39,772 bases of DNA from a virus. The notes under the pieces were generated by a model that made no database searches, was not told where the DNA came from, and was given only the letters and a program-made list of their open reading frames with translations. The translations under genes were made by a program, and so were the position numbers. Below, piece by piece: positions 1 to 13,784 of this stretch (positions are counted from its first letter, which is position 1; every line of letters begins with the position of its first letter). The DNA lies in the IMG/VR virus record IMGVR_UViG_3300045988_162015. One strand, given 5' to 3'.

Positions 1-54
1 AAAGAGGATTGCCGCAATCAAATTATGTTAGACAACAATATGCAACAATAGCCT

Positions 55-468
55 ATGAATACTTCGTTCAATGAAGATGAATTTAATAAACTTATAAATA
101 AAATGGCTGCTTCTTGGGGTAGCTTTGGTATTTCAGCTGAAGAAGCTGGAAAAGCTATTAATGATTTAACAGCTAAACTTGATGAATTTACTAAAATAGC
201 TCCTTGTGATACCTATGAAATTAGGGGCGGTAGGGGCAACAAAAAAATGGCTATGCTCCGGCCAAGAGCAGGCGTAGAAACCGAAAGCTCAAATCGAAAA
301 TATGATTTAGAAATTTTTGATGAAAATGGTGATAGTAAATTAAAAATGCCATTTGATGAAGATTATGTTTATATTATTCCAACAGTTCAAGAAAAACCAA
401 TGAAGGTAGTCTTTGAAAATGATGAATTTATATGGAAAGGAGAAGTAAATCCCATTGATACTAACTGA
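55..468 (+). CDS. hypothetical protein. The frame stays open upstream to position 1 if the TAG at 49-51 is read as Gln, so the gene may be 5'-truncated by the window edge.
   Basis: ORF-track frame 1 ends at TGA 466-468. The in-frame upstream stretch 1-54 contains only a TAG. No SD motif precedes any of the candidate ATGs at 25, 40 or 55. Confidence 0.5.
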   Translation: MNTSFNEDEFNKLINKMAASWGSFGISAEEAGKAINDLTAKLDEFTKIAPCDTYEIRGGRGNKKMAMLRPRAGVETESSNRKYDLEIFDENGDSKLKMPFDEDYVYIIPTVQEKPMKVVFENDEFIWKGEVNPIDTN

Positions 469-528
469 TAAATAGAATGCTGGATTGAAAATTGCCGTAG
501 CCAGATACAAGAGCCGTGAATCTTATAC

Positions 529-1647
529 TTGTATTGCTGGCTACGCTTAACTGGAACGGGCAAATCTACATTAGTAAAATTTATAGTTCAATCATTGAAT
601 TTAAATCCTGAAACTGATGTAGCATATGTAGCTTATACTGGTAAAGCAGCCACTGTTCTTCAAACAAAAGGATGTCCTAATGCAACAACAGCACACAAGT
701 TATTATATGAAGCTAAGCCAAGACCCAATGGTACATTTTATTTAAAAAAAAGATGGCCTATTCCATATAAAGTAATTATTGTAGATGAAATATCAATGTT
801 GCCTAAAACAATGTGGGATTTGCTTCTTTCACATCATAAATATGTAATTGCTTGTGGTGATCCATTTTAGCTTCCACCAGTAGACCCAAATGAAAATAAT
901 CATGTTTTGGATAAGCCGCATATCTTTTTAGATGAAATTATGCGACAGGCCCAAGATAGTGAAATTATTAGATTATCTATGTGGGTACGAGAAGGTAAGC
1001 CCCTTGGGCAATTCCCAGTAGCTAAAGAATAGGTCTAGATTTTAAGGCCATATGAATTAATTCCAGAAATGTATGATTGGGCAGATCAAACTTTATGTGC
1101 TTCTAATAAAAGACGTATTGAAATTAATAATAAAGTTCGAGAGCGACAAGGGCGAGGAGCTACTCCAGAAATAGGAGATAAAATTATAGGATTAACTAAC
1201 CATTGGGATTTTACATCTACTGATGGTTTATGGCCTTTAACTAATGGATGTATTGGAACGATTACTAATTATCAAATTATTCCATATAATTATCCAAGCT
1301 TTATTTATAATAAACAACTCCAATATATGTTTACGGGGATGGATATACCCAATGGAAGATTTGAATCTATACCTATTGATTATGACGCTTTAATTACAGG
1401 TACTCCAGCCTTTGATAATAAGCAAGCATTTAGAATGAATAGTTTTGCTAGAAATACTGATGCATTAGAAGCTCCTTATTATTTTGCTTATGCTTATGCA
1501 ATAACTGTTTGGAAAGCTCAAGGTAGTGAATGGGATAAAGTGTTATTAATTGAAGAAGCCCATCCTTTTGATACATTAGAACATTAGAAATATTTATATA
1601 CTGGCATTACAAGAGCCAGTGAAAAATTAGTAGTTATAAGGAAATAA
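529..1647 (+). CDS. SF1B helicase, Pif1/RecD-like, read through 4 in-frame TAG codons (868, 1030, 1036, 1585). The N-terminus is uncertain.
   Basis: A Walker-A-like LTGTGKST follows the start. The motif GDPF[TAG]LPPV places TAG at the conserved Gln. The segment YTGITRASEKLVVI after the TAG at 1585 resembles helicase motif VI. The gene ends at TAA 1645-1647. An in-frame TGA lies at 517-519, and the only start-like codon is TTG at 529, which has no RBS. Confidence 0.7.
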
Positions 1648-1650
1648 TAT

Positions 1651-2250
1651 ATGAATGTATTAAGCATAGATTTTGATATTATTATGGCACCAAGTATTAA
1701 TTTATATAATAATATGGTTCCTGGGACTAATTGGGATGATTTATTAAAAAGTTTACCCAATCTTACAACAACTCCTGCTGATTTAAACATTTATTCTAAT
1801 ATACTTAGATATTTATTACGGACTATAGATAAAACAACTTCTATTTATATTTCTTATGGTCATAATAAAATAAAAGAATATTTACAATATGATTATGATT
1901 TAAATATAACTAATATAGATCATCATCATGATATTTTTTATAATCCTAAAGACGCAGAAAATAAATTGTGTGATTGTAGTTGTGCTGATTGGGTTAAATA
2001 TTTTCATGATTAGGGTAAATTAAAAGATTATACTTGGGTTCATAATGATAATTCTTGTGATCCAACTTTTGAAGTAAATTTTAAATATAATAAAATTCCT
2101 TTTAAAGAATTTAAATTCGCTGAATCTTATGATAAGTATTTTATTTGTTTATCTCCTGAATGGGTTCCACCTTATTATCATAGTTTATTTTATACTATTT
2201 TGGATTGTTTAAATGAAAAAAATAATTATCATTTGGAGATTGTAGGATAA
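1651..2250 (+). CDS. hypothetical protein (199 aa), read through the TAG at 2011-2013; contains an HHHD cluster.
   Basis: ORF 1651..2013 continues in the same frame through TAG to TAA at 2248-2250. The codon count was checked by hand. Confidence 0.6.
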
Positions 2251-2441
2251 TGGAAATACAAAATTTACTTAATTAGTTAGGTTGTGAGTTAGAACAACAA
2301 CAACAACATAATCAAAACCAAATTGATTATTTACGCAATGAAAATCAAAAATTAAAAAATAATTTATCAACATATAAATAGAATTTAATTGAATTAGCCG
2401 GTATCATAAATAGAATAGCTAATTAGATAGATGATTTTTAA
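2250..2441 (+). CDS. small Gln-rich coiled-coil protein (63 aa) with 3 in-frame TAG codons.
   Basis: The ATG overlaps the previous stop (TAATG). The frame is open to TAA 2439-2441 apart from TAG. The sequence is QQQQHNQNQ-rich. Confidence 0.4.
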
Positions 2442-2443
2442 AA

Positions 2444-2472
2444 TTGCTTTTGATGAAATTATATGATATAAT
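2444..2472 (+). promoter_or_regulatory. candidate sigma70-like promoter for the polymerase gene (-35 TTGCTT, 17-nt spacer, -10 TATAAT).
   Basis: TTGCTT at 2444-2449 and TATAAT at 2467-2472, sitting in the 67-nt gap between the stop at 2441 and the RBS at 2495. Confidence 0.35.
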
Positions 2473-2508
2473 ATTTATAGAAAATAATAGAATTAAGGAG
2501 GTAGGGAA

Positions 2509-5500
2509 TTGGATACTTATTTTGGTTGTCATAATCATACTGATTATTCGAACCTCCGTTTACTTGATTGTATAAATAAACCAGAAACTTTAATTGATAA
2601 AGCTATTGAATTAGGACTTTCGGGAATTGCCATTACAGATCACGAAAGTCTTTCTGCACATATGACAGTAAATCAATATGCTAAAAAAATTAAAGAGAAA
2701 TACCCAGATTTTAAAATAGCATTAGGTAATGAGATTTATTTAACCGATGATAGAAGTACAGGACAAAAATATTATCACTTTATTCTAATTGCTAAAGATG
2801 CTATAGGTTATCGAGCATTAAAAGAATTAAGTTCAATTGCTTGGCAAAATTTATATGTTGATAGAAAAATGGAACGAGTTCCACTTTTAAAGAGTGAATT
2901 AAAGCCAATAGTAGAAAAGTATAAAGGGCATTTAATTGCTACTACTGCTTGTATCGGCGGAGAGTTAGGAACTTGTTTATTAAAAGCAACAGAATACCAA
3001 GAGCAAGAAAATAAATATGAATTATACCAAACATTAAAACAAATAGATACTTTTCTTACTTTTTGCCAAGATTTATTTGGTGAAGATTTTTATTTAGAGA
3101 TTGCACCATCAACTGCGGCAGATCAAAAACTTGTAAATCATATGATTTATAAAATTGGTCGTAAATATGGAATTAAAGTAGAAGTTGCTACAGATAGCCA
3201 TTATTTAACTAAAGAAGATAGACCAATTCATAAGGCTTATCTTAATTCAAAAGACGGCGAACGAGAAGTTGACAAATTTTATGAATTTGCTCATTTAATG
3301 ACTTATGATGAAGTCTTTAAATTAATTGAACCTTGTTTTATTTACTTAGATATTGAAGAACAACCAGAAGAAATCGCAAAAGAAATTTTAAATAATACTC
3401 TTGAAATCCAAAATAAAATTGAAGATTTTTCGCTTGAAAGAAAACAAATAATTCCAAAAGTAGAGGTAACTGATTACCCTCAATCATTAACTGGTTGGTA
3501 TGGTGAGCGTGAAGAGAAATATCCTGTTTTATGTAGCTTATTAATGAGCAACAATCCTCAAGAACGTTATTGGGTTAATGAATGTTATATGTCTTTATTG
3601 GAAAAGATGTATAATAAAAGTATTTCAGATGATAAGTTAGAAATTTATTTAAGTCGTCTTGAAACTGAAGCTGATATTATAAAAGATATTGGTGAAAAAT
3701 TGGATGACTGCCTTTTTGCTTATTTTAATACCTTTAAACATTATATTGATTTGTTTTGGGATTGTGGTTCTATTGTAGGTCCAGGACGTGGCTCGGCCAC
3801 AGGTTTCTTATCTAATTATTTGTTAGGTATTACTCAGCTTGACCCTATAAGATGGGGTCTTCCTTATTGGCGTTTCCTAAACAAAGAACGTGCTGAGTTG
3901 CCTGATATTGATATTGACTTAGCTCCTTCAAAACGTCCAGCGATTTTTGAAGCTATTCGTAAAGAGCGTGGAGAGTTAGGCTTAATTCAGGTTGCTACAT
4001 TTGGTACTGAAACTACTAAATCTGCTATTCTTACGGCTTGTAGAGGTTATAGGTCTGATGATTATCCAAATGGTATTGATGTAGATGAAGCCCAATATAT
4101 GTCTTCTCTTATCCCACAAGAACGTGGATTTTTATGGGAAATTAATGATGTCATTTATGGTAATGAAGAAAAAGATAGAAAGCCTGTAAAAACATTTATT
4201 AATAAAGTAAATGAATATCCGGGCCTTCTTGATATAATTATTTATATTGGTGGCATTGTTAATAAACGTTCTTCTCATGCTTCTGGTGTTATTCTTTATG
4301 GTGATGACCCATATGATACAGCAGCATTTATGAGAACTCCCAGCGGTAGTTTAATTACTTGTTGGGACTTACATCAGGCGGAAGCTGCTGGAGATACTAA
4401 ATATGATTTCCTTGTAACTGAAGCTTCTGATAAAATTATTACTTGTTATGAATTATTATTAAAAGCTAAAGAAATTCCTGATTTATCTTTAAGAGATTTT
4501 TATAATCAATATATTCATCCAGAAGTAATAGATACAACAGATCAAAAAATTTGGGATCATCTTGCCGCAGGCGATGTATTAGACTGTTTCCAGTTTTCTA
4601 CTGGCGTAGGATTAGCTATTGCTAAAAAATTAAAACCACAAGATCCTATGGAAATGACTGCGGCTAATGCCATGATGCGTCTTATGTCTGAAAAAGGTAA
4701 GGAATCACAACAAGATAGATTTTATCGTATTCAGCATCAAGGCATCCAAGCATTTGATAAAGAAATGAAACAACATCATTTGCCGCAAGAGCTTATTGAT
4801 AAATTCCATAAGCATTGTGATAAATATTATGGTTGTTGCCCTTTACAAGAGCAAATGATGGAAATTCTTATGGATATAGCACATTTTACATTGGGAGAAG
4901 CAAATTCCGCCCGTAAAGTTGTTGCTAAAAAACAAATGGCTAAAATTCCTCAATTAAAAGAATAGGTATTTAACCGTTTTGATAATAAAAATGATGCAGA
5001 ATATTTTTGGGAAACAGCAGTTGCACCGCAATTAGGATATGCTTTTAGCTTAAATCACTCGCTTCCTTATTCTTTTGTGGCTATTCAAATGATTTATTTT
5101 GTTATTCATTATAATCCTATCTATTGGAATTGTGCTTGTCTGATTGTTAATAGTGGATCTTTGGAAGACAATAGTGAAGAAGAAATTGTAGATATTTATG
5201 ATCCAGAAGCAGATGATTTAGCCAATGGTGTTACTTTTGAAGATTTGCCAGATAAAAAATCAAAAGTAAGAAAAACTAATTCTACTGATTATGGAAAGAT
5301 TGCTAAGGCTATTGGCGATATTCGTAAGGCTGGTATCCAAGTAAGTCTTGCTGATATTAACAAATCAGAATTTAGTTTTATTCCTGATGTGGAAAATAAT
5401 CAAATTCTATTTGGTTTAAAAGGTATGCTAAATGTTGGAGACGATGTAGTTAAAGCTATTATTGAAAATAGACCTTATAAATCTCCAAGAGATTTTTTAA

Positions 5501-6510
5501 ATAAAGTTAATCCTAATAAGCAAGCAATGATTTCACTTATTAAAGGTGGAGCATTTGATCATATGATGGATAGAAAACTTTGTATGGTCTGGTATATTTG
5601 GGAAACTTGTGATAAAAAGAAAAATCTTAATCTTCAAAATTTAGCTACTTTAATGAAATTCAATCTTCTTCCTGCAGATACTCTTGAACGGCAGCAAGCT
5701 TTACACATTTATGAATTTACTCGTTATTTAAAACAAATTTGTAAATATGATAAAGTTTATTACAAATTGGATGATAGAGCTATTGATTTTTTACAAAAAA
5801 TTGATAAAGATGATTTAATTCAGAGTAAAGATTCTAACTTTTATTTAAATATTAAAGATTGGAATGATAAAGTTTATCAAGGCTGGATGGATGTTTATCG
5901 TAAACAGATTGCTGATAATAAAGAAGAAATTTTAAATAAATTAAATGAAATTGTATTTAAAGAGGATTGGAAAAAATATTGTCCTAAAGTAAATTATTCA
6001 GCTTGGGAAATGGAAGTATTATGCTTCTATTATCATGAACATGAATTGGCTCAAGTTAATCAAAGCAAATATGGCTTCGCTGATTTTTATAGCTTACCTG
6101 AAGATCCAGTAGTAGAGAGAAGTTTTGTTAAAGCTGGAAAAACAATTAATATTTATTATTTATCTAAATTATGCGGTACTTGTATTGCTAAGAATAAAAA
6201 TAAAAGTATCGTAACAATTCTTACTCCAACAGGAGTAGTAAATGTAAAATTTAGAAAAGAATATTTTACATTATTCGATAAACAAATTTCTCAAAAACAA
6301 CCTGATGGAACTAAAAAAATTATTGAAAAATCTTGGTTTAATCGCGGTAATATGATTGTGGTTCAGGGCATTCGCTCCGGTGATGATTTCATCGCTAAAA
6401 AGTACGCCTCAACCGCTGGTCATCAACTTTATCATATTGATGAAATTCAATCTAATGGAAATTTAATTTTACGGAATAATCGTTTTTAGGGAGAAGCTGA
6501 AGATGAATAA
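2509..6510 (+). CDS. dnaE: DnaE-like DNA polymerase III alpha subunit (about 1333 aa) with a TTG start and one internal TAG (4963-4965) read as Gln.
   Basis: N-terminal PHP domain (FGCHNHTDYS...ITDHESL). The core contains GPGRGSA, DIDIDL and the block GYAFSLNHS...IQM just after the TAG. AAGGAGG lies 7 nt upstream of TTG 2509, and the upstream in-frame TAA at 2494 excludes an ATG start. The frame is continuous through the TAG at 6487 to TAA 6508-6510. Confidence 0.85.
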
Positions 6511-7072
6511 TAAAAAATATCAATTAGTAGCACTCATAGGTAAAGCCGGTTCAGGCAAAGATACTATTTTAAAAGATGTAGTAAAAGCTTATGAATTACC
6601 TATGAATATTGTTGTTTCTTATACAACTCGTCCAATGCGTGAAGGAGAGACAGAAGGAAAAGAATATCATTTTATATCTGAAGAAGATTTTAAGCAAATG
6701 ATAAATAATAATCAAATGCTTGAATATGTTCAATTTAACAATTGGTGGTATGGGACTGGCATTAAATGTTTAGCTGATGATAAAATTAATATAGGTATTT
6801 TTAATCCTTCTGGCATTAGATCATTAATCAATTTTCCAGAAATTGATTTACGGATATATTATATTCATGCTTCTGACAAACAACGTTTCCTTCGTCAATT
6901 AAATAGAGAGGAATACCCTGATATTAAAGAAATTATTAGGCGTTATTCTGCTGATGAAGAAGATTTTAAAAATATAAATTTTGATAATATGCAAATTTTA
7001 TTTAATGAAACTGAAAGAGATAGATTAAAATGCTGTGATATAATTACAGATTATGATTGGTTTTGGTACTAA
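6503..7072 (+). CDS. gmk: guanylate kinase-like / dNMP kinase.
   Basis: P-loop GKAGSGKDT and TTRPMREGE, the guanylate kinase signature. The ATG overlaps the polymerase tail. No TAG codons. Confidence 0.7.
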   Translation: MNNKKYQLVALIGKAGSGKDTILKDVVKAYELPMNIVVSYTTRPMREGETEGKEYHFISEEDFKQMINNNQMLEYVQFNNWWYGTGIKCLADDKINIGIFNPSGIRSLINFPEIDLRIYYIHASDKQRFLRQLNREEYPDIKEIIRRYSADEEDFKNINFDNMQILFNETERDRLKCCDIITDYDWFWY

Positions 7073-7108
7073 ATTTTAAGCCAAAATAGATAATTAACTA
7101 ATAACAAA

Positions 7109-7152
7109 CACTAAATATAGTATAAGTTTAAAAATTCATACTATATTTAGTG
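7109..7152 (+). promoter_or_regulatory. perfect 15-bp stem-loop immediately upstream of the nrdD RBS. It is not T-tailed, so it is a possible RNase III or attenuator site rather than a terminator.
   Basis: CACTAAATATAGTAT, a 14-nt loop, then ATACTATATTTAGTG, followed by GGAGG and ATG at 7164. Confidence 0.4.
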
Positions 7153-7163
7153 CGGAGGTTAAA

Positions 7164-8450
7164 ATGTATATAATTAAACGTGATGGTACAGTTGTATTAT
7201 TTGATAAAAATAAAATAATTAATGCTATTAACAAAGCATTTATAGAAGTCGATGGATAGTTATATGAAAATGATACAGCTACTGATATTGCCAATGATAT
7301 TGAATCTTGGATAAATAAATGTCCAGATGGTAGTATTGAAGTAGAAGATATCCAAGATATAATTGAAGATTATTTAATGTAGTCAGAACGACGTGATGTT
7401 GCTCGTGCTTATATTAGATATAGATATAAAAAAGAAGTAGCTCGATAGAAAAAAGATGATTTTATTCAAGCTATTAGAAAAAAATTAGATGGTAAAGATA
7501 TTAAAAATCAAAATGCTAATGTAGATGAAGCATCATTCGGTGGCCGCATTGGTGAAGCCAGTAGTGTTGTAACGAAACAATTAGCTTTAGATTATATTGT
7601 ATCTCCTATGACACGCAAAAATCATTTAGAAAATATAATTTATACTCATGATTTAGATGCTTATTATGTTGGTTCTCATAATTGTTTAAGTGTACCTTTT
7701 GATGATTTACTTGCTAAAGGATTTAATACACGTCAAACTGATGTGCGTCCGGCAGGTTCAGTAAATACAGCTTTCCAATTAGTAGCTGTTATTTTCCAAA
7801 TTCAAAGTCTTTCTCAATTTGGTGGCGTTAGTGCTACTCATCTTGATTGGACTATGGTTCCTTATGTTCGTAAATCTTTTTATAAGCATTATCGTGATGG
7901 TATGAAATATTTATGCAATTGTAATTGGAATTTAAATAATTATTTAGAAGATAGCGACAGCTATAAAAGAATTATAGATATTCCAATCAATGATTATTCT
8001 GCATATTCAAATGAAATAGATGATGTTGGAGATTTTGATAAAGTATATCAATATGCTATGGATATGACTTTAAAAGAAGTTCATCAAGCAGTTGAAGGTA
8101 TGTATCATAATCTTAACACATTACAATCACGTTCTGGTAATCAATTACCTTTCACATCTATTAATTATGGTACTTGTACTCTTCCAGAAGGAAGAATGAT
8201 TACTAAAGCTCTTTTGGATGTATCTATTGAAGGTATTGGTAAATTACATAAAACATCTATTTTCCCTTGTGGTATTTTCCAATGCATGAAAGGAGTTAAC
8301 CGTGAACCAGGTGACCCAAATTACGATTTGTTTAAACTCGCACTATAGTCCACCGCCCAAAGATTATATCCCAACTATGCAAATGTTGATTGGTCAGGGA
8401 ACGCTGGATATGACATTAATGACCCCCGCACCTATTTTTCTACAATGGGT
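7164..8450 (+). CDS. nrdD: anaerobic ribonucleoside-triphosphate reductase NrdD, exon 1 (ATP-cone plus the N-terminal part of the core), with 4 in-frame TAG codons.
   Basis: ATP-cone MYIIKRDGTVVLFDKNKI. Conserved DPNYDLFKLAL[TAG]...RLYPN...STMG ends at a U at 8450, and exon 2 continues with CRTANGYD. Confidence 0.85.
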
Positions 8451-9300
8451 AAGCGAAAACTCAGCCCATTTAAAATCTTTTGAACCGCGCCAGCGGGTGT
8501 CTCTATAAAGAGGCTAACGGTTAGGTCTTAATATAATTGGCTGTAATATTAAGATGAGACCGTGCTAAGATTCATCATAATATTCATATAAAGGAGGTAT
8601 CCTTAATGTGGATATATAAAATAACAAATATTCAAAATAATAAAGTATATATTGGTTAGTCTATTAGACCAATTAATCAAAGATTCCAAAGACATATAAA
8701 TGATGCTCTTAATAATATTCTTGATACTCATTTTGCCAGAGCAATAAGAAAATATGGTAAAGAAAATTTTATTATAGAAGAAATTGATACAGCAAACACG
8801 CAACAAGAGTTAAATGAAAAAGAGCAATATTGGATTAAATATTATAATTCAGTAATAGATGGTTATAATGAAACAGACGCTATTTCTAAATGCGGTGGAA
8901 ATACTTATCAATCTAAAACTGATGAAGAAATAGAAGTTATTAAAAATAAAATTCGACAAACTAAAGTAGGAAGTAAAAATCCTATGGCTAAAAAAATAAA
9001 AAGAATAAATATTTTTACTAATGAAATAGATATTTTTGATACTATTATTAGTTGTGCTAAAGCTTGTGGAATTTAGAATGGTAAAACTTCTATTACAAAT
9101 AGATTAAATGGAAAAATTAAAAGTCCATTTAGAAATACTTGGAAATTTGAATATTATGATGAATAAAGTGTATCGACTATCCCTGATGAATGTAAGGGAG
9201 TAGGCTTGGAGATAGGCACCGAGCCGAAGCGGAAGACAACTCTATTTTATAGATAGAATGATAATATAGTCAGTGCCAATGGTGACATTGGGTAATCATG
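8451..9300 (+). mobile_element. group I self-splicing intron (850 nt) in nrdD carrying a homing endonuclease ORF.
   Basis: The 5' exon ends in U. The P1 pairing is exon AATGGGU with intron GCCCATT about 13 nt in, with a U-G wobble at the splice site. The intron ends in G at 9300. The exons rejoin in frame (…STMG|CRTANGY…), matching the NrdD family. Confidence 0.75.
8606..9166 (+). CDS. GIY-YIG homing endonuclease encoded inside the intron (186 aa), with 2 in-frame TAG codons at 8657 and 9074.
   Basis: WIYKITN...KVYIG[TAG]S GIY-YIG motif, a conserved Arg (RFQRH), and a Glu in EQYWIKYY. AAGGAGG lies 8 nt upstream. The 187-codon count was verified by hand. Confidence 0.8.
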
Positions 9301-10278
9301 TGCAGAACAGCCAATGGATACGATATTAACGGTTTCGGTTAGCTAAAAGATGGCCGTGGTAATATTTGTCCAGTAACTATTATTCTTCCTACTTTAGCTA
9401 TGATTGCTAAAAAAGAATGTGAAGAAGAAGGGCAAGAAGAAGATATTATTCCAGTATTTATGGCTTTATTAAATAGAAAAATTAATGAAGCTCGCATTCA
9501 ATTAATGGAGCGTTTTGATTGGATTTGCTCTCAAGATCCTAAGTCTGCTAAATTTATGTATGAAAATAATTTAATGGCTGGCTATATTCCAGAAGAAGGA
9601 ATTAGAAGTGCCCTTAAGCATGGCACATTAGCCATTGGACAAATTGGTTTAGCAGAAACTCTTTAGATTCTTATTGGTAAAGACCATACAACTAAAGAAG
9701 GTATGGAATTAGCGAAACGAATTGAACAAATGTTTAAAGATTACTGTGCAAAAGCAAAAGAACAATTTAAACTTAATTTTGGAGTTTATTACACTCCTGC
9801 TGAAAATTTATGCTATACAGCAATGAATAAGTTTAAAGAAAAGTACGGCATTATTCCTAATGTGTCTGACAAAGAATTCTTCACTAACAGTATTCATGTT
9901 CCTGTATGGAAGAAAATGTCTCCATTTGATAAAATTGATATTGAAAGTCAATTAACTGGTTATTCTTCTGCTGGATGCATTACATATGTAGAGTTAGATT
10001 CTACAGTAAAACACAATATTGATGCCCTTGAACAAATTGTCAATTATGCTATGGATAAGGATATTCCTTATTTTGCAGTAAATGTGCCTAATGATACTTG
10101 TTTAAGTTGTGGATACTGTGATGAATTTAATGATAAGTGCCCTGAATGTGGTAGCCCTAATATTCAATAGTTACGTCGTGTTACTGGTTATCTTACTGGT
10201 AATTATAAGACTGCTTTTAATTATGGCAAACAAAAAGAAGTAGAAGCACGAGTAAAGCATACGGGGTAGATGGAATGA
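9301..10278 (+). CDS. nrdD: NrdD exon 2 (glycyl-radical and Zn-ribbon C-terminal half), read through 4 TAG codons. It ends at TGA 10276-10278.
   Basis: CRTANGYDINGFG...RGN, the Zn site CLSCGYCDEFNDKCPECG, and the glycyl radical motif RRVTGYLTG. The frame matches ORFs 9400..9666 and 9703..10170. Confidence 0.85.
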
Positions 10279-10622
10279 TACATTCAATTTATGATTTAGC
10301 GAATTATTTTAATTAGAAAGAGGGAAGGAAATATCCTTGTTCTAATTAGATAGTAATATGTGCTTATATAACAAATAATTCACAAGAAGTCTATGATTAT
10401 TTGAATAAAAATAATATTATACCAATCAGAGTATCAAAAACTCGTATAGAATGGCAAGAAAATAATGAGCGATGGATATGGTTACCTATAACCTAGAATA
10501 CTAGAGGCTATAGATTTAATAAAGTAAAAATATCTAAAAATTATAATAATGAAGAAATATTAAAAACAATAATTATTCCTTATTGTAGTTTATATTGTTG
10601 CTCTTGGGAGGTTATGGAATGA
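10275..10622 (+). CDS. possible small hypothetical protein (115 aa) with 3 in-frame TAG codons, sitting between nrdD and nrdG.
   Basis: The frame is open from ATG 10275 to TGA 10620-10622 apart from TAG. ATGA-type overlaps occur at both ends. No recognisable motifs, so it may be spurious. Confidence 0.3.
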
Positions 10623-11104
10623 AATATGCAGGAATTATAAAAAATGATATTGCCGCAGCTCCGGGAGTATGTGTCTCCTTTTTCACCCAAGGTTGCCCCC
10701 ATCATTGTTTTGGATGTCATAATCCTGAAACTTGGGATTTTGAAAAAGGTAAAGAATTTACCAATGAGACTTTTGGAGAAATATTTCAAGCCCTTCAAGC
10801 AAATGGCATTCATAGAGATTTTTGTATAATGGGTGGTGAACCATTATGTGAACAAAATCAATTACTCACTCTACTTCTTATTAATACAATTAAAGAAAAA
10901 CTTCCTGATACTAAAATTTATATTTGGACTGGGTATTACTATGAAGATTTAATTAAGCAAATTACTAATGGTAAACTTCAAGAAATTCTTAAAAAAGCTG
11001 ATGTATTAATTGACGGTCCATATATTCAGTCTCAAAGAGATATTACATTATCAATGAGAGGTAGTAAAAATCAAAATATTATAAACTTAAAGGAGATGAA
11101 TTAA
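10619..11104 (+). CDS. nrdG: anaerobic RNR activating protein NrdG (radical SAM).
   Basis: MKYAGIIKNDIAAAPGVCVSFFTQGCPHHCFGCHNPETWDF, the CxxxCxxC-type NrdG cluster. GGGAGG lies 7 nt upstream of ATG 10619. The ORF-track start at 10595 is a TTG. Confidence 0.8.
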   Translation: MKYAGIIKNDIAAAPGVCVSFFTQGCPHHCFGCHNPETWDFEKGKEFTNETFGEIFQALQANGIHRDFCIMGGEPLCEQNQLLTLLLINTIKEKLPDTKIYIWTGYYYEDLIKQITNGKLQEILKKADVLIDGPYIQSQRDITLSMRGSKNQNIINLKEMN

Positions 11105-11619
11105 TGAGATACAGAGGAAAGATTGCCAATTTAGAAGAAGCAATATAGAAAGAACCAAAAGCAGGAGATGTATTCTATAATACTACTGATACCCATAATT
11201 ATGTTTGGTCTGGCACTGAATGGAATGTTCTAACTGATGGTGTTGATTTTAAAATGAACAATTATGAATTAAATAAATGCGTAATTGGCCAAATGAAAGA
11301 ACTAACTCCAGAAGAAATAGATAAAAAATTAGAAGTTATTGATACCTATGTTCAAGAAAGTTCTGATAAGTATTTTATGCTTTTGTGTAATGAACTAAAT
11401 TATTATACAGTATTTGAAACTAATAGTTTAAGTAACGATAATCCCTATCTTAATATGACTTCTGCCGTTTATGATATTATTAAAGATTTAGGACAGATTA
11501 AAGATATTAATGATAGTGGCTCTGGGGCAGTTGAAATTTGGATTACAAATAACGATGAAACTCATTGTTATCATTTATTCGATTATGATGCTGGCATTGT
11601 TCCAGTAATAGGGAGATAA
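11104..11619 (+). CDS. hypothetical protein (171 aa) with one TAG at 11149-11151.
   Basis: ATG at 11104 (TAATG overlap with nrdG), in the same frame as ORF 11254..11619. Confidence 0.55.
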
Positions 11620-11621
11620 TT

Positions 11622-11882
11622 ATGTTATTTACTTATTTTGATTTATTTAATACAACACAAATTGTTTATTACCAAGGACCAAATGATAAGAAACCCATTA
11701 TGGTTTGTACTTGCCGTCTTGACAATCTTAGTGATACTTTAACTAAACTATCAGAACAATATAAAGATAGTGATATTCATCTTTATGGCAATCAAACTTA
11801 TGGTGAAGGTCTTAAAGAAACTATTGAAAATTCTTTAATTACTAAGTATAGTAATAATAATATTAAAGTTTATGTAAATTAA
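11622..11882 (+). CDS. hypothetical protein (86 aa).
   Basis: ORF track. Tightly packed; no TAG. Confidence 0.5.
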   Translation: MLFTYFDLFNTTQIVYYQGPNDKKPIMVCTCRLDNLSDTLTKLSEQYKDSDIHLYGNQTYGEGLKETIENSLITKYSNNNIKVYVN

Positions 11883-11893
11883 TAGGAGAAAAT

Positions 11894-12169
11894 ATGTTTG
11901 AATATTTGATTAATACTACTGAAGTATATAGAGTAGATACAGAAAAAGAAGCAGCTGAGCTTATTAATAATGCTAAGCAAAATAGAGAATATGATTTAGC
12001 TAAATATTCTTCTACTAAAAAAGAACGCAAATAGAAGGGCGAAATTATTGATGAATGGTATCAAGTAACTCTTGTGAAAAAATTCAATGATGAAAAAGAA
12101 CCTACTGATCATATTTCACTTTGCTATACAACTAAAGCTAACTTTGATGGGGAGACTGTAATTAATTAA
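11894..12169 (+). CDS. hypothetical protein (91 aa) with one TAG.
   Basis: ATG 11894 is preceded by AGGAGAA. The frame is open through TAG to TAA at 12167-12169, which overlaps the dut ATG. Confidence 0.5.
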
Positions 12170-12717
12170 TGAGTATTTATTTTGAAAAGGTAAGTAAATA
12201 TAATGATTGGGATTTGTCGATGCCAGAACGTAAGACTAAATATAGTGCTGGTTATGATTTCGCATCTGCTGAAGATGTTGTAATTCCTTCATATACCCAT
12301 ATTGTAGAAGCTTTTAAAAATGGGGCAGCTACTAACGATATTATTTCTTTGAATGATATGGCTAAAATTACTAAGGGACTTAATTTAAAACCTACTCTTA
12401 TCCCTACTGGAATGAAGTGCCATATGGAAGATGGACAATTCCTTGAACTATCTGTTCGTTCTTCTTTACCTTTAAAACATTGGATTATTCTTGCTAATGG
12501 AGTTGGCATTATTGATGCTGATTATTATAACAATCCTGATAATGAAGGACATATTTATTTTCAATTAATTAATCTTTCTCCTTTTGATATTGAAATTGCC
12601 AAAGGAAATATTATCGGTCAGGGCGTTATTCGAAACTACCTTATTACAGATGATGATAAGGCTGAAGGCACAAGAATTGGTGGATTTGGTTCAACCAGTA
12701 AGGACGTTAATAATTAA
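12169..12717 (+). CDS. dut: dUTP diphosphatase (dUTPase).
   Basis: RKTKYSAGYDF (motif 3-like) and the C-terminal RIGGFGSTSK (motif 5). No TAG. Confidence 0.8.
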   Translation: MSIYFEKVSKYNDWDLSMPERKTKYSAGYDFASAEDVVIPSYTHIVEAFKNGAATNDIISLNDMAKITKGLNLKPTLIPTGMKCHMEDGQFLELSVRSSLPLKHWIILANGVGIIDADYYNNPDNEGHIYFQLINLSPFDIEIAKGNIIGQGVIRNYLITDDDKAEGTRIGGFGSTSKDVNN

Positions 12718-12759
12718 TCAATAAATAATAATCTCCTTCTATAATAGGAGGAGATTTAT

Positions 12760-13266
12760 ATGAATTTTTTATTTTTAGACTTATCCACTAAATCTACTGG
12801 ATACGCTATATCAGATGACAAAGGTAAATTAATTACTTATGGATTAATTACTGCATCTTCTTCTAATAATGTAAGCCGTATCCAAAAGATACAAAGTGGA
12901 ATTATTGAATTAGTAAAATAGTATAATATAGAAAAATTAATTGCTGAAGATGTTCATCCAGAAGCCTATGGTTATTCAGATACTGCTCGATTACTTATGT
13001 GGCTTCAAGGGTCTATAGTTCTTGGTGCTCATAGTGTAAATGATAATATAAATTCCAAAAGCATAGAATTTATGCAAGCTAGTGAATGGCGAAAAAATTT
13101 AGGAATTAAAACAGGTCGCGGTATTAAACGTGAAAACCTCAAGCCTCTTGATATAAAATATGTAAAAGATACATACGGTATTGAGGCCAATGATGATGTC
13201 TGCGATGCTATATGTTTATATACTGCATATTTTAAATCATAGTAGGATGAATTAAATTGGGAATGA
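12760..13266 (+). CDS. RuvC-like Holliday junction resolvase with 3 TAG codons, two of them tandem at 13240-13245.
   Basis: N-terminal FLDLSTKSTGYAIS (RuvC catalytic Asp region) and DVCDAICLY (the C-terminal acidic motif). AGGAGG lies 8 nt upstream. The protein continues 6 aa past the tandem TAG to TGA 13264-13266. Confidence 0.7.
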
Positions 13267-13352
13267 CGGGCAATTTTATACAATTATATAATTCTTTCTT
13301 TCATTTATAATATGAGAAAGAGCGACAAATCCATGTCGGGAGGATTATATAA

Positions 13353-13784
13353 ATGTTAGAATTTATCACAACACATCTGCTTGAAATTATTTTTGGATTA
13401 ATTTCCGCGGGCGCCCTAGCTTTCTGCAAACATCTTCATAGCAAAATGAAAACTTATAAAAAACTAACTGAAGAAAAAGAGAATAGTACTTTAGATAATA
13501 CAATTGAAACTCATATTGAGCCAATTCGTCAAGAAATTGAAGAATTACGAAAGTATGTACTAGAAAGCAATAAAATTGCAAATAATCATATGGATGTAAT
13601 TTTAGCTTCTTATCGTTTTAGATTGACTCAATTATGTAAAGCATATATCCAACAAGGATTTATGACAAATGGTGAGTACGAACAATTAGTAGAATTTTAT
13701 AAAGTTTATACTAGCTTGGGCGGAAATGGTCAAGCAAAGACCTATTATGAACGGGCAATCCAATTACCTGTTCATGACGTATAA
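13353..13784 (+). CDS. membrane protein with one N-terminal TM helix; function unknown.
   Basis: GGGAGG RBS. The hydrophobic N-terminus is LLEIIFGLISAGALAF. It is the last + strand gene before the convergent terminator. Confidence 0.55.
   Translation: MLEFITTHLLEIIFGLISAGALAFCKHLHSKMKTYKKLTEEKENSTLDNTIETHIEPIRQEIEELRKYVLESNKIANNHMDVILASYRFRLTQLCKAYIQQGFMTNGEYEQLVEFYKVYTSLGGNGQAKTYYERAIQLPVHDV

What the first reader, a model, noticed from the sequence alone, without database searches (positions are those of the whole stretch)
8451..9300. Group I intron with a TAG-recoded GIY-YIG homing endonuclease splitting nrdD
- NrdD is interrupted between the codons for ...STMG and CRTANGY..., a highly conserved segment.
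- The 5' exon ends in U, paired to an internal guide sequence (exon AATGGGU with intron GCCCATT) with a U-G wobble at the splice site.
- The intron ends in G, and precise excision restores the frame.
- A GIY-YIG endonuclease (8606-9166) with its own strong RBS sits in a peripheral region.
- The HEG itself contains two TAG codons, one of them inside the YIG[Q]S motif. The mobile element is therefore adapted to, or dependent on, the host phage's recoded translation. I have not seen this described for intron HEGs.
- Phage T4 also carries a group I intron in nrdD, so this position appears to be a recurrent target.
Basis: partly seen in the sequence, partly recalled or inferred. Interest (0 to 1): 0.7.

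Follow-up and report, generated by a model that had tools for sequence, protein, structure and literature searches.

The report
Recoded homing intron in phage nrdD
A self-splicing group I intron carrying its own DNA-cutting "homing" enzyme interrupts the anaerobic ribonucleotide reductase gene of a phage that reads the TAG stop codon as glutamine, and the enzyme gene itself uses TAG codons; each ingredient is already known, so this is a well-supported but fairly ordinary new example.

Summary
nrdD is split exactly at 8450|9301 (…STMG|CRT…) by an 850-nt insert. A 96.8%-identical relative lacks the insert at precisely that point.

The insert is a group I intron of the IA type. P1 to P9 plus P7.1 and P7.2 are supported by covariation across 17 family members (92% of cells paired against about 40% in slid controls). 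Its 3' core is homologous to the proven T4 nrdD intron. Rfam's general model misses it, because a 561-nt ORF sits in the P6a loop and two extra hairpins follow P3.

The ORF (8606-9166) is an I-TevI-like GIY-YIG endonuclease with two in-frame TAGs. The window is clearly TAG-recoded: ORF coverage rises from 13 kb to 38.5 kb when TAG is read as sense. TAG aligns with Gln in relatives, and the ORF stays under purifying selection.

- The T4 intron lies about 115 codons upstream, not at this site.
- A recoded intron endonuclease has already been described, for TGA in Agate phages (Borges et al. 2021).

Lactococcus phage 949 carries an ORF-less member of this intron family at the same site, already noted in the literature. 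Verdict: a new member of a known kind, of moderate-to-low interest.

The parts
7164..8450 (+). nrdD exon 1 (ATP-cone plus the N-terminal part of the NrdD barrel); 4 in-frame TAG codons; ends ...STMG with U at position -1
   Evidence: Translation; Pfam NRDD and ATP-cone on the spliced product; alignment to PDB 8P23
8451..9300 (+). Group I intron (IA type), 850 nt, with omega-G at 9300
   Evidence: Exact presence/absence against intron-less allele L035; covariation-supported P1-P9; homology to the T4 nrdD and phage 949 nrdD introns
8444..8470 (+). P1: exon AAUGGGU (8444-8450) paired with the internal guide GCCCAUU (8464-8470); U.G wobble at the 5' splice site
   Evidence: in the family the outer pair is A-U in 12, G-C in 2, G-U in 2 and C-G in 1; 98% of cells paired
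8476..8481 (+). P3 5' strand UCUUUU (pairs with GGAAGA, 9231-9236)
   Evidence: 3 of 6 pairs show compensatory changes; 100% of cells paired; position homologous to T4 UCUGCC/GGCAGA
8485..8514 (+). Two extra hairpins between P3 and J3/4 (my labels P3.1, 8485-8496, CCGC-GCCA-GCGG; and P3.2, 8499-8514, GUCUCU-AUAA-AGAGGC). T4 lacks them.
   Evidence: 3 of 4 and 4 of 6 pairs show compensatory changes
8517..8563 (+). P4 (ACGGUU 8517-8522 / GACCGU 8558-8563), with J4/5 AGG, P5 (UCUUAAUAU 8526-8534 / AUAUUAAGA 8546-8554) and J5/4 UGA
   Evidence: P4 100% paired with one compensatory pair; P5 93%; the Rfam alignment of the 949 homologue assigns the same helices
8564..8585 (+). P6 5' strand (GC, 8564-8565) and P6a 5' strand AUUCAUCAUAAUAUUC (8570-8585)
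   Evidence: 16-bp complement to 9149-9164. Seven pairs covary, including a completely different P6a sequence in L028 and in the ORF-less members
8590..8597 (+). Shine-Dalgarno AAAGGAGG, 8 nt before the endonuclease AUG. It can be sequestered together with the AUG in a local hairpin (about 8580-8615) that competes with P6a.
   Evidence: fold -14.8 kcal/mol, z=-3.6; pairing potential conserved in 10 relatives but without compensatory changes
8606..9166 (+). GIY-YIG homing endonuclease gene (186 codons plus TAA) in the P6a loop. TAG codons at 8657-8659 and 9074-9076. Its last five codons and the first base of the stop form the P6a 3' strand (9149-9164).
   Evidence: Pfam GIY-YIG; PHROG 314 homing endonuclease E=3.9e-24; I-TevI catalytic domain 1MK0 E=5e-9; homologues at the same place in at least 19 loci; dN/dS 0.11-0.24
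9168..9180 (+). P6 3' strand (GU, 9168-9169), J6/7, and P7 5' strand GACUAU (9175-9180); this is the classical R element
   Evidence: 31 nt from 9174 are identical to the T4 nrdD intron; P7 is invariant in the family
9181..9225 (+). P7.1 (9181-9198) and P7.2 (9203-9225), the subgroup-IA hallmark helices
   Evidence: Compensatory changes in 3 of 4 and 5 of 6 pairs; homologous to T4
9231..9273 (+). P3 3' strand GGAAGA (9231-9236), P8 (9242-9256) and P7 3' strand AUAGUC (9266-9271, the S element)
   Evidence: all five P8 pairs covary
9276..9300 (+). P9 CCAAUG-GUGA-CAUUGG (9276-9291), then a 9-nt tail ending in omega-G at 9300. P10 is weak here (2 bp, CA/UG) and stronger in relatives.
   Evidence: P9 100% paired with 4 compensatory pairs; P10 54% paired
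9301..10278 (+). nrdD exon 2 (starts at the catalytic Cys, CRTANGY...; glycyl-radical motif RRVTGY; 4 TAG codons; stop TGA)

Best explanation
Bases 8451-9300 are a mobile group I intron of the IA type, a relative of the T4 nrdD (sunY) intron. It is inserted in the codons for the catalytic-cysteine loop of anaerobic ribonucleotide reductase NrdD.

**Splicing (inferred from structure).**
- The transcript folds into P1 to P9, with P7.1 and P7.2 and two extra hairpins after P3.
- Exogenous G attacks after the U.G pair at 8450.
- The freed exon then attacks after omega-G at 9300, which restores ...TMG-CRT... in frame.

**The endonuclease.**
- The P6a loop holds an I-TevI-like GIY-YIG homing endonuclease gene.
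- The 3' end of that gene doubles as the P6a 3' strand.
- Its product would cut intron-less nrdD alleles in a co-infecting phage, and the intron would be copied in by recombinational repair (inferred).

**Recoding.**
- The host phage reads TAG as glutamine (shown by sequence statistics).
- The endonuclease gene has drifted to the host's codon usage: TAG is 2 of its 10 Gln codons, against 8 of 33 in nrdD.
- The enzyme can therefore be made only where TAG is suppressed.
- This most likely reflects long residence in recoded phages, not a special regulatory design.
For: - **Boundaries.** Intron-less allele L035 is 96.8% identical over 2265 nt, shares all 8 TAGs, and lacks exactly these 850 nt. The spliced product is a complete NrdD.
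- **Ribozyme.** On 17 family members, 92.4% of cells pair against 36-46% when partners are slid. 39 pairs show double-sided changes, and 0 of 500 shuffles reach the observed values. P1, P3, P4, P5, P6a, P7.1, P7.2, P8 and P9 all covary.
- **Homology to known introns.** The R/P7-P7.1 segment is identical to the experimentally self-splicing T4 nrdD intron over 31 nt. RF00028 hits the ORF-less homologue at the same site (41.6 bits, E=2.9e-9).
- **Endonuclease.** It hits GIY-YIG, PHROG 314 and the I-TevI catalytic domain, with the Arg, Glu and Asn positions aligned.
- **Mobility.** At least 31 viral contigs carry the family at this site, and 80 relatives lack it.
- **Recoding.** ORFs of 100 aa or more cover 13.0 kb under code 11 and 38.5 kb with TAG as sense. 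TAG columns are Gln in 78 of 80 and 69 of 80 relatives. Codon 18 is Gln (CAA) in all 16 HEG-bearing loci whose HEG lacks TAG at that codon.
- **Selection on the ORF.** dN/dS is 0.24 against L030 and 0.11 against L019, within the lineage that carries these two TAGs.
- **Code matching.** All 11 loci with a TAG-free endonuclease gene have no TAG in their nrdD exons, whereas most loci with a TAG-bearing one do.
Against: - Rfam RF00028 finds nothing in the window, even at E<=10. The best score for an ORF-less family member is below the gathering cut-off (41.6 against 50).
- No suppressor tRNA lies in the 39.8-kb window or in 26 related loci.
- P10 is only 2 bp here.
- L030 has both TAGs in its endonuclease gene but none in 503 nrdD codons, so its host's code is unverified.
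- Splicing, endonuclease activity and the amino acid inserted at TAG are all inferred, not measured.
Confidence: 0.9

Rival explanations
1. The TAG codons are a selected timing gate. Early in infection TAG still terminates, so endonuclease synthesis stops at codon 18. Once the phage's suppressor system is active, the enzyme is made. This is the hypothesis Borges et al. proposed for the TGA-recoded Agate intron endonuclease.
For: - A published precedent exists.
- The first TAG is very early in the ORF (codon 18).
- TAG density in the window is strongly biased: 2-4% of codons in the large minus-strand genes against 0-1% in the replication genes.
- T4 intron endonucleases are likewise kept off early, by RBS sequestration (PMC2988022). 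A comparable hairpin is predicted here.
Against: - The host gene nrdD carries 8 TAGs itself, at the same density (1.06% against 1.08%) and a similar Gln-codon share (24% against 20%). TAG must therefore already be read whenever NrdD is made, and the endonuclease gene is not preferentially recoded.
- TAG positions differ between lineages and several fall at variable residues, as expected from drift.
Confidence: 0.25
2. The endonuclease ORF is a dead pseudogene truncated at codon 18. The intron is a fixed, immobile passenger, like the T4 nrdB intron with its defective I-TevIII.
For: - Two in-frame standard stop codons.
- No suppressor tRNA found in the window.
- L030 carries the same TAGs next to TAG-free nrdD exons.
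Against: - The whole window needs TAG as sense.
- There is no TAA, TGA or frameshift in 186 codons in any of three TAG-bearing lineages.
- dN/dS is 0.11-0.24 within the TAG-bearing lineage.
- TAG at codon 18 replaces a conserved Gln.
- Intron-plus and intron-minus alleles coexist in near-identical recoded phages.
Confidence: 0.06
3. The insert is not spliced. nrdD is a genes-in-pieces enzyme made as two polypeptides around a free-standing endonuclease, as in the Aeromonas phage Aeh1 nrdA/mobE case.
For: - Rfam gives no hit in the window.
- GenBank annotators list the homologous halves in phages 949 and TR-TP1 as separate CDSs.
Against: - A complete, covariation-supported group I fold is present.
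- The junction is exactly in frame, and exon 2 has no start codon or RBS of its own.
- The break falls inside the catalytic finger loop, one residue before the thiyl-radical Cys.
- The insert is homologous to the self-splicing T4 intron.
Confidence: 0.03

Closest known systems
Lactococcus phage 949 nrdD intron (HM029250; audreyjarvisviruses 949, AM4 and AM5)
   Same: - Same intron family at the same insertion site (PMG|CRS).
- 73.5% nucleotide identity over the 5' 127 nt.
- Same P1, P3, the two extra hairpins, P4 to P9.
- RF00028 scores it at 41.6 bits.
- Already described as a 'non-coding intron' in nrdD (PMC3653736).
   Different: - ORF-less (320 nt): P6a is a short hairpin, not an ORF-bearing loop.
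- It has an extra P9 extension.
- The host phage uses the standard code.
Phage T4 nrdD (sunY) group IA2 intron with I-TevII
   Same: - Same host gene.
- Homologous P7, P7.1, P7.2, P3', P8 and P9 core (31 nt identical; 77.5% over 71 nt).
- Encodes a GIY-YIG-class endonuclease.
- RBS-sequestering hairpin theme (PMC2988022).
   Different: - Inserted about 115 codons upstream.
- Its ORF lies 3' of P9, not in P6a.
- I-TevII shows no detectable similarity to this endonuclease.
- It lacks the two post-P3 hairpins.
- Standard code.
Phage T4 td intron with I-TevI
   Same: - The endonuclease catalytic domain is I-TevI-like (PDB 1MK0, E=5e-9).
- The ORF is looped out of the P6 region of an IA intron (from my own knowledge of td, not tested here).
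   Different: - Different host gene (thymidylate synthase).
- The C-terminal half matches no I-TevI DNA-binding module in Pfam or the PDB.
- This protein is 186 aa against 245 aa for I-TevI (the I-TevI length is from my own knowledge).
- It contains TAG codons.
Recoded group I intron endonuclease of Agate phages (Borges et al. 2021/2022)
   Same: An intron-encoded homing endonuclease, sitting in an early gene of a stop-codon-recoded gut phage, that itself contains the reassigned stop codon.
   Different: - There the codon is TGA read as Trp, and the family is statistically enriched for it.
- Here the codon is TAG read as Gln, at the same density as the host gene.
- The host gene and endonuclease family in Agate phages are not stated in the passage I read.
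Thomasclavelia phage TR-TP1/TP2 nrdD intron (PQ571309)
   Same: - Closest cultured-phage nrdD (71% nucleotide identity).
- Also split in the TMGC codons by a group I intron with an endonuclease ORF (RF00028 27.9 bits).
   Different: - Unrelated intron sequence.
- HNH endonuclease.
- By my reading of the exon sequences, the insertion point is 4 nt upstream, after the AU of the Met codon.
- Its nrdD exons are annotated as uninterrupted CDSs under the standard code.

Membership tests
Group I intron (subgroup IA, T4 nrdD-like) | P1 formed by the 5' exon and an internal guide sequence, with a U.G wobble at the 5' splice site | tested here: met
   AAUGGGU (8444-8450) pairs with GCCCAUU (8464-8470). 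U.G is present in 17 of 17 members, and the outer pair covaries A-U, G-C and C-G.
Group I intron (subgroup IA, T4 nrdD-like) | Terminal omega-G, and exact in-frame exon ligation | tested here: met
   G at 9300. Intron-less allele L035 equals exon 1 plus exon 2 with no base gained or lost.
Group I intron (subgroup IA, T4 nrdD-like) | Conserved core: P3-P8 and P4-P6 domains, with the P3/P7 pseudoknot | tested here: met
   90 pairs, 92.4% of cells paired against 36-46% when slid, 39 pairs with compensatory changes, 0 of 500 shuffles reaching the observed values. P7 is invariant, so it is uninformative by covariation, but it is identical to T4.
Group I intron (subgroup IA, T4 nrdD-like) | R and S consensus elements forming P7 (the G-binding helix) | tested here: met
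   CGACUAU (9174-9180) and AUAUAGUC (9264-9271), identical to T4.
Group I intron (subgroup IA, T4 nrdD-like) | P7.1 and P7.2 between P7 and P3' (the IA hallmark) | tested here: met
   9181-9198 and 9203-9225, both with compensatory changes.
Group I intron (subgroup IA, T4 nrdD-like) | Rfam RF00028 covariance model at or above the gathering score (50 bits) | tested here: not met
   No hit in the window at gathering or at E<=10. The ORF-less homologue 949 scores 41.6 bits, L010 21.2 bits and T4 105 bits. The failure is explained by the 561-nt ORF in P6a and the two hairpins after P3, which the model lacks.
Group I intron (subgroup IA, T4 nrdD-like) | Self-splicing with a guanosine cofactor | not testable with these tools
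   Needs in-vitro transcription and splicing, or RNA reads.
GIY-YIG homing endonuclease (I-TevI-like) | N-terminal GIY-YIG catalytic domain with the conserved Tyr, Arg, Glu and Asn | tested here: met
   Pfam PF01541 at 38.2 bits, above the 22.6 cut-off. The alignment to 1MK0 covers residues 3-92, with the IY, YIG/YVG, R(W/F)xRH, E...W and GYN motifs aligned.
GIY-YIG homing endonuclease (I-TevI-like) | Separate C-terminal DNA-binding domain | tested here: inconclusive
   No Pfam or PDB hit for residues 95-186. PHROG 314 'homing endonuclease' aligns over residues 3-184.
GIY-YIG homing endonuclease (I-TevI-like) | Element present or absent at a fixed site among close relatives (the footprint of homing) | tested here: met
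   Window and L035; 31 intron-bearing against 80 intron-less loci.
GIY-YIG homing endonuclease (I-TevI-like) | Site-specific cleavage of the intron-less allele | not testable with these tools
   Biochemical assay needed.
TAG-to-Gln recoded phage (code-15-like) | Genes are intact only if TAG is read as sense | tested here: met
   13.0 kb against 38.5 kb in ORFs of 100 aa or more; stop-free coverage 0.45 against 0.96.
TAG-to-Gln recoded phage (code-15-like) | TAG aligns with Gln in standard-code homologues | tested here: met
   NrdD columns are Gln in 78 of 80 and 69 of 80 relatives, and the third column is variable. The HEG YIGQ column is Gln.
TAG-to-Gln recoded phage (code-15-like) | Phage-encoded suppressor tRNA(CUA) or a release-factor change | tested here: inconclusive
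   No tRNA in the window or in 26 related loci. The rest of the genome was not available.
Same insertion site as the T4 nrdD intron | Identical position in the NrdD alignment | tested here: not met
   T4 exon 1 ends ...AFQAYE and exon 2 resumes ...HIDEVNTLFSSNGQTPF, which matches our residues about 309-330. Our site is at residues 429/430.

The most novel reading that the evidence does not exclude
One endonuclease-bearing intron family occupies the same nrdD site in both standard-code and TAG-recoded gut phages. TAG codons have entered the endonuclease gene independently in at least three lineages. The genetic code would then act as a one-way barrier for a selfish element. The RNA can splice anywhere, but a TAG-bearing endonuclease can drive homing only in cells where a recoded phage supplies suppression. 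That would confine those intron copies to the recoded gene pool. Alternatively, the TAGs gate endonuclease synthesis to the time when suppression is active.
Probability: 0.3. Interest if true: 0.6.

Novelty: new member of a known kind. Interest (0 to 1): 0.35.

Why it matters
- **Annotation.** General covariance models (RF00028) and standard-code gene callers both miss this element. nrdD would be reported as several fragments and the endonuclease as a 17-residue stub. The two post-P3 hairpins and the ORF in P6a explain the miss.
- **Biology.** The family offers a natural comparison set: ORF-less, TAG-free and TAG-bearing copies, plus a near-identical intron-less allele. It could be used to ask how selfish elements track a change of genetic code in their host. 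It could also test whether recoding limits horizontal spread or delays endonuclease expression.
- **Limits.** The individual ingredients are already documented. These are an intron in a phage RNR gene, a GIY-YIG homing endonuclease, TAG recoding, and a recoded intron endonuclease.

Tried and rejected
- **Rfam on the window.** The gathering search returned nothing, and the E<=10 search of 8300-9450 returned only noise: HOLDH 13 bits, EBv-sisRNA 15 bits, SSRC34 19 bits.
- **P3 assignment.** I first read the hairpins at 8485-8496 and 8499-8514 as P2 and P2.1, with P3 after them. I rejected this because UCUUUU (8476-8481) pairs with GGAAGA (9231-9236), covaries in four sequence variants, and is positionally homologous to T4 P3. 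The Rfam alignment of the 949 intron also mis-assigns P3, which explains its low score.
- **I-TevII.** No similarity to this endonuclease (BLASTP E=0.84).
- **Suppressor tRNA.** None found in the window or in 26 related loci.
- **Host-code test on short loci.** The stop-free coverage test is not decisive for loci of 5-13 kb around nrdD, because early regions carry few TAGs. An exon-level TAG count worked better.
- **Large minus-strand genes.** PHROGs annotation returned no functions, so calling them 'late' or 'structural' is inference only.
- **Internal promoter.** The scan found 11 weak sites against 5.5 expected and nothing convincing.
- **RBS hairpin.** It is predicted and its pairing potential is conserved, but no compensatory changes support it, so I keep it as a hypothesis.
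Full report
**1. Observation**

- An ORF starting at 7164 runs in frame, if TAG is read through, to ...TCT ACA ATG GGT at 8450.
- The frame resumes at 9301 with TGC AGA ACA GCC AAT GGA TAC.
- The 850 nt in between end in G.
- Joining the two parts gives a 754-residue protein with ATP-cone, NRDD and glycyl-radical domains (Pfam NRDD E=1.8e-143).
- That protein aligns without a gap across ...FSTMG|CRTANG... to the solved NrdD 8P23 (...IATMGCRT...). The break falls one residue before the Cys of the conserved MGCR segment, which from my own knowledge of NrdD is the thiyl-radical cysteine.
- ORF 8606-9166 follows AAAGGAGG (8590-8597). It contains TAG at 8657-8659 and 9074-9076 and ends in TAA.

**2. 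The boundaries are proven by a natural intron-less allele**

A scan of viral contigs with the spliced junction peptide returned 80 uninterrupted relatives.
- The best, L035 (IMGVR_UViG_3300045988_152007), is 96.8% identical to the window's spliced nrdD over 2265 nt.
- L035 shares all eight in-frame TAG codons and lacks exactly the 850 nt.
- Within about 200 nt on either side of the junction (-210 to +318) there are only four differences. One is the last exon base: GGA in L035 against GGT in the window.
- All intron-bearing alleles have GGT, as the U.G wobble requires. Among the 80 intron-less alleles the third base is A in 50, T in 14, G in 8 and C in 7.

**3. It is a group I intron, although Rfam does not see it**

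Rfam at gathering thresholds found nothing in the window. An E<=10 scan of 8300-9450 found no Intron_gpI hit.

BLASTN against phage genomes was more informative.
- Window 9174-9244 matches the T4 nrdD intron at 77.5%.
- Window 8443-8569 matches Lactococcus phage 949 at 73.5%.
- Phage 949 has a 320-nt ORF-less insert at the same codon boundary (PMG|CRS). RF00028 scores it at 41.6 bits (E=2.9e-9).
- The T4 intron scores 105 bits.

A pattern taken from the P5 hairpin retrieved 31 viral contigs carrying the same element at the same site. From the 17 distinct complete copies, with the ORF loop trimmed, I built alignment A1. I then tested a hand-drawn structure on it.
- 92.4% of cells pair, against 36-46% when the partners are slid.
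- 39 of 90 pairs show changes on both sides.
- No shuffle out of 500 reaches the observed values.

| Helix | Window coordinates |
|---|---|
| P1 | 8444-8450 / 8464-8470 |
| P3 | 8476-8481 / 9231-9236 |
| Extra hairpin (my label P3.1) | 8485-8496 |
| Extra hairpin (my label P3.2) | 8499-8514 |
| P4 | 8517-8522 / 8558-8563 |
| P5 | 8526-8534 / 8546-8554 |
| P6 | 8564-8565 / 9168-9169 |
| P6a | 8570-8585 / 9149-9164 |
| P7 | 9175-9180 / 9266-9271 |
| P7.1 | 9181-9198 |
| P7.2 | 9203-9225 |
| P8 | 9242-9256 |
| P9 | 9276-9291 |

- The outermost P1 pair switches between A-U, G-C and C-G together with the wobble base of the Thr codon preceding ATG (ACA, ACG or ACC).
- P7 with its R and S elements is invariant. 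From 9174 the sequence is identical to T4 over 31 nt.
- P7.1 and P7.2 place the intron in subgroup IA.
- P10 is only 2 bp here and up to 5 bp in relatives.
- RF00028 most plausibly fails because a 561-nt ORF splits the core and because of the two post-P3 hairpins. The model misaligns these even in ORF-less members.

**4. The ORF is an I-TevI-like GIY-YIG homing endonuclease in the P6a loop**

- It hits Pfam GIY-YIG, PHROG 314 'homing endonuclease' (E=3.9e-24) and the I-TevI catalytic domain 1MK0 (E=5e-9, with catalytic positions aligned).
- It shows no similarity to T4 I-TevII.
- The C-terminal half has no recognised DNA-binding module.
- The last five codons (EYYDE) plus the T of the stop codon are the 3' strand of a 16-bp P6a helix. 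The 5' strand of that helix lies just upstream of the RBS.
- D-to-N changes at the C-terminus are matched by C-to-U changes in the 5' strand. L028 has an entirely different but still complementary P6a.
- A local hairpin (about 8580-8615; -14.8 kcal/mol, z=-3.6) could sequester the SD and the AUG, and it competes with P6a.
- The same pairing potential exists in 10 relatives, but without compensatory changes. I therefore treat this as a hypothesis. It echoes the RBS sequestration known for T4 endonucleases (PMC2988022).

**5. TAG is sense here, and the endonuclease gene depends on it**

- Under code 11, ORFs of 100 aa or more cover 13.0 kb of the window. With TAG as sense they cover 38.5 kb. Making TGA sense does not help.
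- Stop-free coverage rises from 0.45 to 0.96.
- The three TAG positions of the junction segment of NrdD behave as follows in the 80 relatives: one column is Gln in 78, one is Gln in 69, and one is variable.
- In the endonuclease, codon 18 is Gln (CAA) in all 16 HEG-bearing loci whose HEG lacks TAG at that codon. Codon 157 is Lys or Asn in those loci.
- Both TAGs therefore needed at least two substitutions, presumably through CAG or AAG.
- CAG is almost absent from this genome.

| Gene | CAA | CAG | TAG |
|---|---|---|---|
| Endonuclease | 8 | 0 | 2 |
| nrdD | 25 | 0 | 8 |
| Large minus-strand genes | about half of Gln codons are TAG | | |

(All counts.)

- The endonuclease gene thus has the codon profile of its host gene.
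- dN/dS within the TAG-bearing lineage is 0.11-0.24, and no TAA, TGA or frameshift has accumulated. The ORF is therefore maintained.
- Other lineages carry TAGs at other positions: one in the L011 group and four in L025, two of which fall at conserved Gln.
- All 11 loci with a TAG-free endonuclease gene have TAG-free nrdD exons. Most TAG-bearing ones have TAGs in nrdD.
- L030 is the exception, with none in 503 codons.
- No suppressor tRNA lies in the window or in 26 related loci.

**6. Mechanism**

- *Shown:* the architecture, the boundaries, homology to a proven ribozyme, the presence/absence polymorphism, genome-wide TAG recoding, and purifying selection on the ORF.
- *Inferred:* the G-dependent two-step splicing, cleavage of intron-less nrdD and repair-mediated homing, Gln insertion at TAG, and any translational control.
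- *Why the ORF contains TAG:* the simplest reading is mutational drift toward host usage during long residence in recoded phages. Its density equals that of nrdD.
- *The alternative:* the timing-gate idea of Borges et al. is weakened because NrdD itself needs TAG read-through.

**7. Comparison with what is known, and novelty**

- The ORF-less form at this site is on record for phage 949 (PMC3653736).
- Group I introns with GIY-YIG endonucleases in phage RNR genes are classical (PMC2988022).
- Frequent nrdD fragmentation by group I introns in gut phages is documented (PMC12880540).
- A recoded (TGA) group I intron endonuclease in an early gene of Agate phages has been described and interpreted.
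The TMGC codons are nevertheless a hot spot. TR-TP1 has an unrelated HNH-bearing group I intron 4 nt upstream.

Three things seem not to have been described in the library searched:
- the TAG-recoded GIY-YIG version of this intron;
- the spread of the family across both genetic codes;
- the two post-P3 hairpins.

I rate it a new member of a known kind, with interest 0.35.

Noticed in passing
L001 (Thomasclavelia phage TR-TP1, PQ571309) about 2524-3398: The closest cultured-phage nrdD is split by a different group I intron carrying an HNH endonuclease. By my reading of the exon sequences it is inserted 4 nt upstream of our site, after the AU of the Met codon. RF00028 gives 27.9 bits on its 3' part. 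GenBank annotates the halves as separate CDSs.
   Followed up: partly
L021, L023, L027, L029 (exon 2 breaks after 103 codons; extra CGACTAT elements about 290 and 650 nt further on); L004, L014 (exon 1 only 199 codons): Some relatives appear to carry further interruptions of nrdD besides this intron, probably more introns. This agrees with reports of nrdD split into up to four pieces in gut phages.
   Followed up: no
window 16966-39759 (minus strand) against 25-13784 (plus strand): TAG density is sharply bimodal. It is 2-4% of codons in five very large minus-strand ORFs (about half of all Gln codons; 110 TAGs in one 2898-codon ORF that runs to the window edge). It is 0-1% in the plus-strand genes for helicase, DNA polymerase III alpha, a guanylate kinase-like protein, NrdD, NrdG, dUTPase and a RuvC-like protein. 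CAG is nearly absent throughout. The large ORFs have no PHROG function.
   Followed up: partly
window 1-39772 and 26 related loci: ARAGORN finds no tRNA gene of any kind, so the suppressor needed for TAG decoding must lie elsewhere in the genome.
   Followed up: partly
window 10279-10618: About 340 nt lie between the nrdD stop and the likely nrdG start (MKYAGIIKND...). With TAG as sense this stretch holds a 115-codon ORF (10275-10622, 3 TAGs) with no Pfam hit. That is unusually long spacing for this compact region.
   Followed up: partly
position 8450 against L035-L114, locus position about 2622: Every intron-bearing allele has GGT for the Gly codon at the splice site. Intron-less alleles mostly have GGA (50 of 80; T in 14). 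This could reflect the splicing requirement for U at -1, co-conversion, or target-site variants that resist cleavage.
   Followed up: partly
window 8580-8615: A predicted hairpin pairs AUAUUCAUAU with AUGUGGAUAU and encloses the Shine-Dalgarno sequence. It is mutually exclusive with P6a, so ribozyme folding and endonuclease translation may be coupled.
   Followed up: partly
L004, L009, L016, L021, L026, L033 (alignment A1 columns about 287-316): In several family members the P7.2 region is expanded by about 30 nt (an extra hairpin, GAUG/GUUG...CAUC/CAAC). The ribozyme periphery therefore varies within the family.
   Followed up: no
L030 (IMGVR_UViG_3300045988_145683): This locus carries the same two TAGs in its endonuclease gene, but has no TAG in 503 flanking nrdD codons. 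Either nrdD is TAG-poor in a recoded phage, or the intron was recently transferred into a genome where the endonuclease cannot be made.
   Followed up: no
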